Below are positions 260 to 56,400 of a stretch of 64,000 bases of DNA, piece after piece. Position 1 is the stretch's first letter. Each line of letters starts with the position of its first letter. The notes beneath the pieces are model-generated. The model had not been told where the DNA came from and did no database searches. It saw nothing but the letters and a program-made list of their open reading frames with translations. Both the position numbers and the translations under genes were made by a program. The stretch is from Octopus vulgaris (taxonomy: Eukaryota), in assembly GCA_951406725.2 (NCBI GenBank), contig OX597830.1, positions 18,662,001 to 18,726,000 on the forward strand, given 5' to 3'.

Positions 260-550
260 AACAATTGCAGCGTGGAAGGTGTTTATAAGCCATTTAAGAA
301 ACACACAAAAGCCGTTCGATTCACTTCAACATTTAAGTTTAAATCCGTGCTGCACGATTTTTGTCAGTGAACAGGTCGCGGTCTTAAAGCGACGAAAATA
401 TTTTGACAAATTAAACTTAAATGTTGAAGTGAATCGAACAGCTTTTGTGTGTTTCTTAAATGGCTTATAAACACCTTCCACGCTGCAATTGTTTTCGTTT
501 CAGCACACGATCTCAGATAAAATTACTTGCTATGCAAGTACATTTCCATA
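260..550. mobile_element. Fold-back element (Penelope pseudo-LTR-like) carrying a hammerhead-like motif
   Basis: Inverted arms ~260-342 / ~412-493 (aacaattgcagcgtggaagg...ccttccacgctgcaattgtt); second, non-foldback copy on - strand at ~49838-50040. Confidence 0.7.
360..410 (+). ncRNA. Minimal hammerhead ribozyme-like motif, G3:C8 core variant
   Basis: stem I tttgtca/tgacaaa; core GTGAACA (367-373); stem II gtcgc/gcgac; GAAA (394-397); palindromic stem III aatatt; then T as H17. Confidence 0.55.
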
Positions 551-574
551 ATTTAATATTCTATTGGTTTAGAC

Positions 575-837
575 TGGTATTTCTCAACCATTCTTTACCT
601 ATGGATCCCCATTGATTCCTATTTCATGCAGGTGGACCCTTGTAGTCATTCAATAATAATTTTTAAAATCTTATGTTTTCATAATTAACTATTATTAGAA
701 ATTCTATAGAAAAGATTATTAGAATATTTTTTGTTTGTAAAAGTATAACCAGTTTATTGCAGATAAATTTTAACAACAAAACCTTATAGTGGACCCACCC
801 CTCCAAGGGCCACATGGACCCCAACTGAGAATCCCTG
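575..837. mobile_element. hAT/Charlie-like MITE (decayed)
   Basis: Degenerate TIRs (tggtatttctcaacc / actgagaatccctg) with 8-bp TSD gtttagac/gtatagac. Confidence 0.55.
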
Positions 838-922
838 GTATAGACACAGCCACCTGTACTCTGAATTGATTCAATGTTTAGTCCTTAGTTCTGCTCAAAC
901 ATATTTTTGGCATTATGTAGTT

Positions 923-1048
923 TTCTTCTTCTTCTTCTTCTTCTTCTTCTTCTTCTTCTTCTTCTTCTTCTTCTTCTTCTTCTTCTTCTTCTTCTTCTTC
1001 TTCTTCTTCTTCTTCTTCTTCTTCTTCTTCTTCTTCTTCTTCTTCTTC
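923..1048. repeat. (TTC)42 perfect microsatellite
   Basis: Uninterrupted trinucleotide run; explains the poly-F ORF. Confidence 0.95.
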
Positions 1049-1259
1049 CAATCAGGACTCACGCCATTAGCCACAGAGAATAATCTCTAATTTGAGCAGA
1101 CTCTAAGCTACATTGTTATCCTCATTCTGTAAACAGTGGCTTTTAACAGGTGGAGAGCTGAACCATCCTGGGGTTCAGAGGATTCTCAATCTAGACTAGG
1201 GTCTGAAAGTTTACCACACCATAGTGGGTTACACCATGGTTCCTCTCCTTTGTGGCAGA

Positions 1260-1446
1260 AGTAGGAAGAAAGAGTGAGAGAAAGTTGTGGTGAAAGAGTA
1301 CAGTGCCCCCCCCTCCCGACTGGAGCCTCATGGAGCTTAGGTATTTTTGCTCAATAAACATTCACAATGACCGGTCTGGGAATCAAAACCACGTTCTTAT
1401 GACCGCAAGTCCGCTGCCCTAACTACTGGGCCATTGCGCATCCACT
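1260..1446 (-). mobile_element. tRNA-derived SINE fragment (same family as 25771-26070)
   Basis: Reverse complement shows A box tggcccagtagttag and B-box-like gttttgattccc; body matches the 25771 copy. Confidence 0.6.
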
Positions 1447-52602: not shown

Positions 52603-52925
52603 ATAATAATAATAATAATAATTGTGTACAGTGCTCAGGTGCACTACAACTCATCTAAAGTGTATATATAATCAGGTGTAGTTTCGGCAGATTTCGGAAA
52701 GCATGAGGGCCTTAAAGGATGCAGTGTCATGGCAGTCAACAACTGACGCAGGCAGTTTATTCCATGCTTCAGCAACTCTGAGCGTGAAAAAATGTTTCCG
52801 AAAGTCATGGGAGCTGTGTTGTTTTCTGACTTTGTAGGCATGTCCACGTGTGTTAGACACATGGAGATCAAAAAGGTGTTCAGTGTTGTTGTTGGTGAGG
52901 TGGTTGATAACCTTGTGGGTGTTTA
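52603..52925 (-). mobile_element. CR1-clade LINE 3' end
   Basis: TRGHAYKVRKQHSSHDFRKHFFTLRVAEAWNKLPASVV...SFK, short 3' UTR, (ATT)n tail. Confidence 0.85.
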
Positions 52926-53388
52926 GTAAGTATCAGTCAAGTACTGGGATCCACAACTGCTTGCACTTCTCAAAACAATGCCCTAGCCTACCTAAGATCC
53001 ATTGGCAGAAATGTTAAAAATTTACATACATACTTATGTTTCTCAAAACATATGTATTTATATATATGTATAATATACAGGTGTTTGATAAGTGCCAACA
53101 CGCAAACTCTCAAATCTTCAGTCACTCTGTTGCTTCTGCTAAATATTCCTTTCTACTAAAGGCAGAAGACCTGAAATTTTGGGTGGAAGAGACTGGTCAA
53201 TTACATCGACATCAGTATTTCACTGGTACTTAATTTACCACCCCCAAATGGATGAAAAGCAAAGTCAACCTCAGCAGAATTTGAACCCAGAATGCGTAGA
53301 CAGATGAAATACCACTAAGCATTTTGGTCAGCGTGCTAATTATTCTGCCAGGTCACTGCCATACTTATGCTAAATATTAATAAAATAT

Positions 53389-53802
53389 ATAGGCGTAGGA
53401 GTGGCTGTGTGGTAAGTAGCTTGCTTACCAACCACATGGTTCCGGGTTCAGTTGCACTGCATGGCACCTTGGGCAAGTGTCTTCTACTATAGCCTTAGGC
53501 CGACCAAAACCTTGTGAGTGGATTTGGTAGATGGAAACTGAAAGAAGCCCGTTGTATATATTTATATATATATATATATATATATATATATGTTTGTGTG
53601 TCTGTGTTTGTCCCCCCAACATCGCTTGACAAACATGCTGGTGTGTTTACGTCCTTGTAACTTAGCGGTTCGGCAAAAGAGACCAATAGAATAAGTACTA
53701 CACTTACAAAGAATAAGTCCTGGGGTTGATTTGCTCTACTAAAGGCGATGCTCCAGCATGGCCACAGTCAAATGACTGAAACAAGTAAAAGAGTAAAAGA
53801 GT
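53389..53802 (+). mobile_element. SINE family A, full length
   Basis: Consensus match. Confidence 0.9.
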
Positions 53803-54792
53803 ATAAGTATTGTGATGCAAACAGGAATAACAGAACTAAAAATATGAATATATGTTTACCTTTATTAATATTTAGCAGAGGTAACACAGTGATTCAAGGT
53901 CTGAGAATTTCGTGCATTGGCACTTATCAAACCTTCATCCAGAGCTTCAGTCACTCTGTTGCTTCTGCTAAATATTCATAAATATATATAAAATTAATCA
54001 AAGGACATACTAAGTATGTCTATCTGCTGGAAATAACAGTCAAAACTCTTATATTAGTATGGTGCTCAGGAATATAAATAAAACAAGTCTTTTACGTTTC
54101 GAAGGTGCAGATACATATATATATATATGGGTTTGTGCATATACCTATATATATGGCTCTGTGGTAAGAAGTTTGCTTCCCCACCACAAGGTTCAGTTCT
54201 ACTGCATGGCACCTTGGGCAAGTGTATTCTGCTAAAGCTTTGGATTTGATAGAGAGAAACTGAAGGAAGCCTGTTGTATGTATATATATATATATATATA
54301 TATGTGTGTGTGTGGTACCACCTGGCAGGCCCTCATACTGGTGGCATGTAAAAGCACCTACAACACTCTTGGAGTGGTTGGCATTAGGATGAACACCCAG
54401 CTGTAGAAACTTTGCCAGATCAAACTGGAGCCTGGTACAGCCTACTGGCTCACCAACCCTCAGTCAAACTGTCCAACCCATGCCAGCATGGAAAGCTGAC
54501 GTTAAACGACGACGATGATGATGAATAATATATATATATATATATATATATATATATATATATATATATATATATATCTTTTTTGCCCCCCTTCCCCACA
54601 ACTTCACAACTGGTGCTGGTGTGTTTACATCCCTGTAACTTAGTGGCTCTGCAAAGAGAGAACAACAGAATAAGTACCAAGCTTTTAAAAAACATACTGG
54701 GGGTTGATACATTCAAATAAAATATTCCCCAAGACGGTGCCCCAGCACAGCCACAGTTAACTGACTGAAAGAAGTAAAAGATATACATATAT

Positions 54793-55000
54793 ATCTGTAA
54801 AATAATATGTGACAATTATAGATGGCCAGATAACCGAAGAGATGGTGTTGTGGATTTCCACCTTGGCATCCGTAACTCAGAGTTTTATCTTGGCCATTGA
54901 ATAATTGTCACATATTATTTTACAGATAAATTTCCTCTATTTACATAATATTGAGGTCTCTTTCTTTCTTTTGTTATCTTAACGTTTTTACCAATATATA
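54793..55000. mobile_element. Fold-back element enclosing a decayed HHR-like motif
   Basis: ~40-bp arms 54793-54833 / 54885-54928 around CCGAAGA gatg...catc c GTAA ctcagag TT. Confidence 0.5.
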
Positions 55001-56189
55001 TATATATATATATATATATACGCACACACACATGGAAGAGAGAGAGATGATGATGATAAATAAATCTATATATGTATACTTCTCAGAATTTCTTGCTATT
55101 TTAGAGAAAGTATGTGTATGTGTGTGTGTGTGTGTGTGTGTGTGTGTGTGTGAGAGAGGGATTTGTATGGGCATCTCAGTCTAAGAACACTTCCATGCTG
55201 ACTCAACTTCCTGTCTTCCTTGAAACCATATCTAGCCCTTTCCCACCTCATATTTATGGTGGGTCCAATCTGTTTCATTAGTTTTCAACTCTTATACATT
55301 TGATCACAGATACACATGTTCCACATCAGGCACAGATAGCCTTTTTTTTCTTGTGGCAGATCTTGAAAGATTTTGCTCATTATAAATTAGGCCACACAAC
55401 TAAAAACAAAAATTTATTTAAAGAAAAAATACCATGCTTGTAGTACGGAGTGTACCATATATTACACTAAGTATTTTCATACAAATTTGATTTAATGTTA
55501 GGTTGACTAAATGAGAAAGAGAGAAAGAAATGAGAATGTACAAATAACAATTAAGCCTGCGATTATGTTACAGAATTTTAGTAAAAAATTTTGTTTACCA
55601 GCAGAAACACGACCCTCCAGGGTGTTTTCTGCTAGTCGTTATGATAAGGATAAACCTCATGTGTGTGTATGCATTTTTATGTATGTGCACATGTGTCTGT
55701 GTGTATGTACGTACATATGTGTATGTACGTACATATGTGTACGTGTGTATGTCTTCTCCCTTTTACTTGTTTTCAGTCATTGGACCGAGGCCATGCTGGG
55801 GTACTCACTTGAAGGCTTTTTTTATTAGAACAAATAAACTGCACAACTTTTTTTTTTTATCTCGGTACCTATTCTGTTGGACTCTTTTGCCAAACCGGTA
55901 TGTAATAGAGACATAAACAAACACCATGAGAACAAACACACACGTGTGTGCACACATACACACACACACAATTACGTGTGCTGTTGTGATTTCTTTTCCT
56001 TCTTTGGACATTTCCCTTTCTCCTTCTTGACAAAGAGCTATGCTTGAAACGTCAAACTCTCCTTTCACCGTGCATCAAGCTAATATATTTCTTGTGCGTA
56101 TACTCTTGTCTGTTAATTATTACTCATTTATTTGAATTGATTATATATATACATATATATATATACATATATATATATATATATATATA

Positions 56190-56400
56190 TATATATGGAA
56201 AAATAAAGTCAAGGTAGAAAATGCTAAAATAATTTTGTAAAAAACATTTCAGTACCGGTTTCAGTTAAATTTAATTGTTTTCCATACTTAGAGTTGAAAA
56301 AGTCTCAATGACTGAAACTGGTACTGAAATGTTTTTTACAAAATTATTTTAGCATTTTCTACCTTGACTTTTTTTTCCATATATATCAACACGTGTGTTC
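56190..56400. mobile_element. Fold-back PLE-like element with HHR-like motif (U3:A8)
   Basis: Arms ~56196-56266 / 56311-56386; ag TTGAAAA agtc-tcaat-gact GAAA c(t/c)gg TA ct at 56292-56325. Confidence 0.62.

What the first reader, a model, noticed from the sequence alone, without database searches (positions are those of the whole stretch)
260..56400. Diverse short elements share a minimal hammerhead architecture whose core positions 3 and 8 covary (C:G, U:A, G:C)
Seen: at least seven short-element families that are otherwise dissimilar share the order stem I - N3-UGA-N-N8-A - short stem II - GAAA - tiny palindrome - UH - stem I'. Cores are CTGATGA/CTGAAGA (12207-12213 on -, 12524, 52061), TTGAAAA/TTGATAA (22173, 45118-45124 on -, 53924-53930 on -, 56294) and GTGAACA (367, ~50013-50019 on -). 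Established: hammerhead positions 3 and 8 form a tertiary Watson-Crick pair, and Penelope-like elements carry minimal HHRs with palindromic stem III thought to cleave as dimers. Inference: this is a diverse non-autonomous PLE-mobilised ribozyme-retroelement system in which selection kept the 3:8 pair. Searches anchored on CUGANGA would miss the U:A and G:C families.
Basis: partly seen in the sequence, partly recalled or inferred. Interest (0 to 1): 0.82.

Follow-up and report, generated by a model that had tools for sequence, protein, structure and literature searches.

The report
Penelope hammerheads with flipped core pair
The short repeats here are end fragments of Penelope-like jumping genes that carry a tiny, predicted self-cutting RNA motif; that is a known system, but one abundant family has a flipped core base pair (G3:C8) that I found in print only as a laboratory mutant.

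Summary
All nine cores are at the stated places and belong to seven dispersed repeat families. Four families fit the minimal hammerhead fully, two partly, one only in core and stem II. Positions 3 and 8 are complementary in 13 of 13 multi-copy families of this genome (5 C:G, 7 U:A, 1 G:C) and in 10 of 10 related elements from metagenome contigs.

The "non-autonomous system" reading is mostly wrong. Three families, including the G:C one, sit in the pseudo-LTR behind a reverse transcriptase and/or GIY-YIG endonuclease, so they are truncated or inverted copies of protein-coding Penelope-like elements. Minimal pLTR hammerheads and the U3:A8 swap were published in 2014.

What may be new is a natural G3:C8 core, previously a partly active lab mutant; two key papers were unavailable.

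Against uniform selection: the youngest intact lineage has lost A13, another subfamily has G17, copy ends ignore the cleavage site, and U:A also arises by neutral double transition. Cleavage is untested. The scan's earlier notes held other Penelope hammerheads but no match to this element.

The parts
348..554 (+). G3:C8 family pLTR fragment: stem I 360-366/404-410, core GTGAACA 367-373, bulged G 374, stem II 375-379/389-393, GAAA 394-397, palindrome 397-402, predicted scissile bond after 403, then about 150 nt of tail
   Evidence: MFE forms stems I and II, z -3.1; family tied to RT+GIY-YIG in L373 and to GIY-YIG in L349, L351, L362, L369, L370
260..342 (-). inverted partial copy of the same tail (hairpin-type PLE insertion)
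   Evidence: 98.8% identity
49836..50038 (-). second, older G3:C8 family copy; core 50019-50013; all motif elements intact
12093..12275 (-). C3:G8 family 12207 copy; core 12213-12207; CG palindrome decayed to CA
12462..12609 (+). second copy of family 12207; core 12524-12530; G12>A
21992..22295 (.). U3:A8 family 22173 as a fold-back pair; core 22173-22179 on +; 5' strand of stem I replaced by the inversion junction in this copy
44984..45339 (.). U3:A8 family 45118 (core 45124-45118 on -) with inverted arm 45154-45339; pLTR of an intact two-frame PLE; atypical motif
52009..52189 (+). C3:G8 family 52061; core 52061-52067; G12>A here and G17 as in most scored copies
53816..53988 (.). U3:A8 family 53924 (core 53930-53924 on -) with inverted arm 53940-53988; core and stem II only
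56189..56465 (.). U3:A8 family 56294 (core 56294-56300 on +) with inverted arm 56189-56265; pLTR behind a GIY-YIG frame in other copies

Best explanation
These repeats are pseudo-LTR fragments of several Penelope-like retrotransposon lineages, each carrying its own minimal type I hammerhead motif that is predicted, not shown, to self-cleave. Shown: three families lie behind RT and/or GIY-YIG frames; one intact element has the motif in both flanking repeats; relatives of the G:C element carry the motif at the same position. Inferred: the short copies arise when the element's protein starts target-primed reverse transcription internally in the tail and copies an uncleaved RNA, often with an inverted second arm. 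The G:C copies stop sharply about 23 nt before G3, most simply at a capped transcription start whose cap was copied as an extra G. Inferred: in the source lineages the 3:8 pair was held by selection on folding or slow, dimer- or protein-assisted cleavage, with compensatory double changes to U:A (likely several times) and once to G:C. Some lineages have since relaxed.
For: ORF links: family 45118, motif at both ends of a 557-aa plus 775-aa frame pair with Pfam RVT_1 and GIY-YIG; family 56294, GIY-YIG-type frame upstream in L079, L081, L084; G:C family, GIY-YIG-type frame upstream in 5 of 30 loci and RT+EN in L373, 29% identical over 156 aa to the RT of the 775-aa frame. Relatives: 12 of 19 metagenome loci with at least 460 nt of room have the motif 371-443 nt after the protein match; 10 distinct elements, 7 C:G, 3 U:A, none mismatched, with 3 and 8 unconstrained. 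The tree needs 3 label changes. Own genome: 13 of 13 multi-copy families complementary. G3:C8 in 21 of 25 in-register copies fetched without using the core. No variant listed at 3 or 8 at 3% or more in contigs of four runs under four species labels (6 further rows not shown). Copy ends: 77 of 165 alignments start at -23 to -20, ends cluster at +120..+128 (60) and +178..+191 (77), 21 of 30 loci have an inverted arm, and one has a clear 14-bp duplication. This matches the internal RT starts and unprocessed template reported for an Anolis PLE (PMC11167929).
Against: No cleavage data. The youngest intact subfamily of 45118 reads GCAA for GAAA in 17 of 17 copies with the motif (18 loci), so a lineage expanded with a broken core. 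G17 occurs in 14 of 18 scored copies of 52061, which impairs minimal hammerheads (PMC3884650). In the G:C family G3 can pair with U17 and extend stem I in the predicted fold. Only 2 of 165 copies start at the scissile bond and none ends there. Four of seven families have no protein link in my data. The G:C element's frame has no Pfam hit. A genome-wide pattern for non-C3, non-G8 cores was not enriched over its control (557 vs 746). Kinship makes the family counts non-independent. 60 of the G:C loci were selected on their 5' sequence, which inflates the start peaks.
Confidence: 0.82

Rival explanations
1. Some families are truly non-autonomous, retrozyme-like units moved in trans by PLE proteins.
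For: Family 12207 forms a head-to-tail array with 188-197 nt spacing. A further C:G family forms a 7-unit array of about 355 nt in L157. No protein hit lies upstream of families 12207, 22173, 52061 or 53924 in the loci held. PMC8557442 and bioRxiv 10.64898/2026.07.22.740005 describe non-autonomous PLE derivatives.
Against: The G:C family looked non-autonomous in 30 of 30 loci until an upstream anchor exposed its endonuclease. Absence of a link in 1.5-kb flanks is therefore weak evidence. Three families are linked.
Confidence: 0.3
2. The motifs are largely vestigial. U:A cores arose by biased double transition and G:C by a founder event in one master copy, and the apparent covariation records history rather than current selection on catalysis.
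For: Among 8 double-substituted dead copies of C:G family 12207 in the 100 listed matches, 4 are U:A, 3 G:A and 1 A:U (counted by eye). A13>C is fixed in a young lineage. Cleavage was not needed for insertion in vitro in the Anolis PLE.
Against: No multi-copy family has a single change (U:G, C:A, G:G and so on) among 23 elements. G:C needs two transversions. Stems, bulge and palindrome are kept with different sequences across relatives whose proteins match the G:C element's frame at only about 31-46%.
Confidence: 0.2
3. The matches are chance words inside MITE-like fold-back repeats.
For: Several window copies sit in long inverted repeats. Family 53924 fits poorly. Individual folds are mostly weak (z -0.3 to -2.2 for 7 of 9).
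Against: Shuffles give 0-0.4 strict hits against 11 and 99. The motif lies at a homologous position behind the ORF in related elements. The arms are of unequal, variable length, as in PLE insertions.
Confidence: 0.03

Closest known systems
Minimal hammerheads (min-HHR) in pLTRs of metazoan Penelope-like elements (Cervera and de la Pena 2014, PMC4209133; main text parts 1-2 of 4 and supplement parts 1-2 of 3 read)
   Same: Core, unpaired base after A9, G10.1-C11.1, palindromic 15-16 region, short stem I, several sequence families per genome, opposite-strand pairs, mostly truncated single copies, U3-A8 variant (about 1,300 hits in Schistosoma mansoni) missed by the standard descriptor.
   Different: Their 56-row alignment has 53 C:G, 2 U:A, 1 U:G and no G:C core and no cephalopod. 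Here U:A is the commonest state by family (7 of 13) and one family is G:C.
Poseidon PLE of Anolis carolinensis (Frangieh et al. 2024, PMC11167929; part 1 of 4 and passages read)
   Same: Internal RT initiation at two sites giving a tail; insertion from unprocessed RNA; no RNA ends at the hammerhead site; 3:8 pair tested.
   Different: There G3:C8 is an engineered double mutant with partial, protein-assisted activity; here it is the natural state of a lineage.
Natural U3:A8 hammerheads (Perreault et al. 2011, PMC3088659; passages)
   Same: Natural covariation of the 3:8 pair.
   Different: The passages seen name only C:G to U:A, as a rare variant.
Non-LTR retrozymes (PMC7229834, passages; bioRxiv 10.64898/2026.07.22.740005, part 1 of 5)
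   Same: Short hammerhead-bearing units, sometimes in tandem, related to pLTRs.
   Different: The window copies are dispersed or inverted, not tandem; the motifs are minimal; three families have their own protein.

Membership tests
Metazoan PLE minimal hammerhead | Core N3-UGA-N-N8-A ... GAAA ... UH with complementary 3:8 | tested here: met
   7 of 7 families have the 5' core and a complementary pair; exceptions in the 3' half are G17 in most 52061 copies and A13>C in young 45118
Metazoan PLE minimal hammerhead | Stem II with unpaired base after A9 and G10.1-C11.1 | tested here: met
   met in 367, 12207, 22173, 52061; no bulge in 56294 (A-U closing pair) and 53924; irregular in 45118
Metazoan PLE minimal hammerhead | Palindromic 15-16 region and short stem I | tested here: met
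   met in 367 (7 bp), 12207 (4-5), 52061 (4), 22173 (3), 56294 (3), 45118 (2-3); not met in 53924
Metazoan PLE minimal hammerhead | Self-cleavage as dimer or with protein help | not testable with these tools
   only contigs, no raw RNA reads, were available
EN+ Penelope-like element | RT followed by C-terminal GIY-YIG endonuclease upstream of the pLTR | tested here: met
   45118: Pfam RVT_1 and GIY-YIG; G:C family: RT by BLASTP (E 1e-10) and GIY-YIG by motif, no Pfam hit; 56294: linker and EN by motif; not shown for the other four families
EN+ Penelope-like element | pLTR repeated on both sides of the ORF | tested here: met
   L321 (3648, 8605) and L323 (3288, 8267) for 45118; metagenome relative L376; no full-length G:C copy was retrieved
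EN+ Penelope-like element | Tail, 5' truncation, inverted copies, target-site duplication | tested here: met
   G:C family: two 3' end clusters, 21 of 30 with inverted arm, one clear 14-bp and three weaker duplications among 9 solo copies
EN+ Penelope-like element | Clade assignment (Neptune, Nematis, Poseidon, Hydra) by RT phylogeny with reference elements | not tested
   by eye the G:C element's linker resembles the Nematis rows seen in the PMC8557442 supplement and 45118/56294 look Neptune-like (recalled); no reference tree was built
Non-LTR retrozyme | Head-to-tail tandem units each with a hammerhead | tested here: inconclusive
   not met for the window copies; one array of family 12207 and one array in L157 exist
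Non-LTR retrozyme | No protein-coding capacity | tested here: not met
   three families lie behind their own RT/EN frames; open for the other four
Non-LTR retrozyme | Abundant circular RNA | not testable with these tools
   no run on record as RNA; contigs only

The most novel reading that the evidence does not exclude
The 367/50019 family is the first natural G3:C8 hammerhead: the laboratory compensatory double mutant, fixed by two transversions in a protein-coding Penelope-like lineage, kept in four species labels and catalytically active. With repeated C:G/U:A switches in its clade, this would show that selection acts on ribozyme catalysis in vivo although cleavage is dispensable for insertion in vitro, and that genome hammerhead counts miss most families in some animals.
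Probability: 0.4. Interest if true: 0.6.

Novelty: new variant of a known kind. Interest (0 to 1): 0.42.

Why it matters
The role of PLE hammerheads is open: they cleave poorly and are not needed for insertion in vitro. Natural compensatory changes at a tertiary core pair are the best comparative sign that the catalytic fold is selected. One genome that holds C:G, U:A and G:C lineages, plus a young lineage with a broken core, offers a ready test panel. In practice, descriptors fixed on CUGANGA would miss 8 of the 13 families seen here. The system itself and the U:A swap are already published, which caps the interest.

Tried and rejected
1. Idea that G3 is the last base of a splice acceptor: rejected. 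The acceptor-like motif (branch-point word, pyrimidine tract, CAG) ends 21 nt upstream of G3.
2. Idea that the sharp 5' end is a spliced junction: no matching donor found by my patterns in 5 EN-linked copies, and no shared upstream sequence in 30 loci. A capped start with a copied cap G fits better (precedent for L1/SVA in PMC3287187 passages) but is untested.
3. Extending the G:C tail downstream found no ORF and mostly retrieved a different hairpin family.
4. The apparent triple tandem at C2:171.24 Mb is a 3.4-kb local duplication without a PLE frame.
5. Sequencing runs: no RNA holder on record, contigs only, so no statement on expression or cleavage.
6. Genome-wide non-C3/non-G8 pattern: total not above control (557 vs 746). 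In the 30 loci scripted, 8 of 10 with stem II of 4 bp or more were complementary against 9 of 20 below that. No recurring A:U or second G:C family among the first 100 rows; a few A3:A8 singletons are likely decayed C:G copies.
7. Rfam: no hammerhead among the matches shown. A Pfam accession recalled for a PLE domain was not in the library.
8. Dropped before counting: one loose hit in L374 lacking A9 and G12 and a second C:G motif on the minus strand of L396; singletons L278 (C:G), window 6150 (A:U) and L201 (U:C); a false family match at window 34625.
9. Literature searches for a natural G3:C8 core found only lab mutants. Lunse et al. 2017 (PMC5785218) and Przybilski and Hammann 2007 (PMC1986816) are not held, and file 1 of the 2014 supplement could not be searched; any of these could contain one.
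10. Earlier scan notes: no match by sequence or place.
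Full report
Setting. The window lies in a 2.8-Gb assembly with 30 large contigs. It is rich in microsatellites and repeats; no gene annotation was attempted. The closest named homolog of a protein linked below is annotated from Octopus vulgaris, so I treat the genome as octopus-like.

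Observation. In 89 arbitrary 10-kb stretches the seven families gave 11, 10, 9, 4, 3, 2 and 1 alignments of 50 nt or more, which extrapolates to thousands to tens of thousands of copies each. Most window copies are decayed, so the motif has to be judged per family. Clustering on sequence that excludes positions 3 and 8 and family tallies show four families with the full minimal architecture: 12207 (C:G), 367 (G:C), 22173 and 56294 (U:A). Family 52061 (C:G) has G17 in 14 of 18 scored copies. Family 45118 (U:A) has an extra A before GAAA and a 2-3 bp stem I. Family 53924 (U:A) has only core and stem II, even in copies that retain upstream sequence.

Chance. With 3 and 8 free, 79 arbitrary stretches (790 kb) gave 11 hits with a palindromic 15-16 region, all complementary, from five families, against 0.4 in shuffles. 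Without the palindrome rule the result was 14 of 23, against 4.2. Six further multi-copy families turned up, three of them from a pattern that excluded C3 and G8 but did not force pairing. In total 13 of 13 families are complementary: 5 C:G, 7 U:A, 1 G:C. That pattern's total count was not above its control (557 vs 746), so only its recurring rows carry weight: two U:A motifs with 10 and 7 of the first 100 rows, counted by eye.

What the elements are. Family 45118 is the pLTR of an intact element. The motif lies on both sides of a 557-aa frame and a 775-aa frame with Pfam RVT_1 and GIY-YIG hits; an endonuclease query had 15,217 first-look candidates. Family 56294 lies behind a GIY-YIG-type frame in three loci. 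The G:C family first looked non-autonomous, since 30 of 30 loci began at the same point. Loose ends in public contigs then revealed an upstream extension, which has 557 exact matches and 0 in the control. In 5 of the 30 loci fetched with it, a GIY-YIG-type frame with a cysteine linker lies about 1 kb upstream, and L373 holds RT plus EN before the motif. That frame has no Pfam hit, but it is 29% identical over 156 aa to the RT above and 39-54% identical to 28 longer database proteins. No protein link was seen for the other four families.

Covariation on a tree. Relatives of the G:C element in metagenome contigs (35 loci) carry the motif 371-443 nt after the protein match in 12 of 19 loci with enough room. 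These make 10 distinct elements, counting one inverted copy in L401: 7 C:G, 3 U:A, none mismatched, all with an unpaired base after position 9 and a 4-nt palindrome like the G:C motif. One U:A element has C at position 9, and one C:G family has G12>A. The protein tree needs three label changes (shuffles as low in 16 of 200) and groups the G:C element with one U:A and one C:G element without resolving them; the outgroup branch is long. A permutation of position 8 gives 8e-4 for these 11 elements and 7e-8 for all 23; both ignore kinship and overstate the case. Within the family, G:C is in 21 of 25 in-register copies fetched without using the core, with 4 more out of register. Contigs from four runs under four species labels list no variant at either position.

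How it most likely works. Of 165 alignments to a G:C reference, 77 start 20-23 nt before G3. Ends cluster near +124 and +184. Two start at the scissile bond and none ends there (60 loci were chosen on their 5' sequence). Of 30 loci, 21 carry an inverted arm, and a 14-bp duplication flanks L241. This is the pattern expected from internal RT initiation on an uncleaved RNA, as shown for an Anolis PLE, where cleavage was protein-assisted, partly restored in C3G/G8C and dispensable for insertion (PMC11167929). The genomic start reads TCAGATG, whereas the short copies read GAGATG. A capped start at the A with the cap copied as G would explain this (precedent in PMC3287187); a splice junction is the alternative, but I found no donor. 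I infer that the hammerhead cleaves slowly, as a dimer through its palindrome or with protein help, and that the source lineages were selected to keep the fold. Predicted pairing of the palindrome alone is weak (-0.2 to -3.8 kcal/mol), and G3 can pair with U17 in the predicted fold, so activity may be low.

Against. The youngest intact subfamily of 45118 has GCAA in place of GAAA in 17 of 17 motif-bearing loci, while 11 older loci keep GAAA. A PLE can therefore expand with a broken core. G17 impairs minimal hammerheads (PMC3884650, abstract and passages). Dead copies of a C:G family reach U:A by double transition (4 of 8 double mutants, by eye), so U:A is a mutationally easy state. G:C is not.

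Known versus new. Minimal pLTR hammerheads, many families per genome, opposite-strand pairs, low dimer activity and the U3-A8 swap missed by standard descriptors are in PMC4209133; natural U3:A8 is also in PMC3088659. The 56 motifs of the 2014 alignment include no G:C core. Six searches found G3:C8 only as an engineered mutant, but two directly relevant papers were not held. Verdict: a real and largely known system, misread as non-autonomous, containing one plausible novelty, a natural G3:C8 lineage, whose activity is untested.

Noticed in passing
L321:3648-8605, L323:3288-8267 (G000:C1:37.06 Mb, C2:78.20 Mb): A young intact PLE has two overlapping frames (557 aa without a Pfam hit, then 775 aa RT-EN in another frame) instead of the single ORF typical of PLEs; how the second frame is translated is unexplained.
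   Followed up: partly
L303-L320: The same young subfamily carries GCAA for GAAA in its hammerhead in 17 of 17 motif-bearing loci, so it seems to have expanded with a broken core.
   Followed up: partly
L241:1480-1760, run X3: One run guessed to be RNA shows 14 A>G places against 4 in the other three, as A-to-I editing of fold-back copies would give; a species or strain difference is not excluded.
   Followed up: no
L157:3083-4513 (+) and two units on -: A tandem array of about 355-nt units, each with a C3:G8 hammerhead, arranged like a non-LTR retrozyme.
   Followed up: partly
L275, L278, L268 and 20 other loci: A further hairpin-forming family with a C3:G8 hammerhead that has a longer palindromic stem III and U or C at position 4.
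   Followed up: partly
window 19127-19514 (+) and 44182-44397 (-): Decayed GIY-YIG endonuclease remnants of other PLE families; the second lies in a fold-back at 44193-44488.
   Followed up: no
window 19616-20026 (+) and 33839-34174 (+): Open frames that look by eye like the end of a LINE RT and a Tc1/mariner transposase fragment.
   Followed up: no
family 56294, window 56278-56293: A pyrimidine-rich run directly precedes the core, ending in CAG in most family copies (GAG in the window copy), as the intron end does at helix I of Drosophila virilis Penelope; splicing would change stem I.
   Followed up: no
window 6150-6144 (-): A single-copy A3:U8 descriptor match with weak A-U stems; probably chance.
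   Followed up: partly
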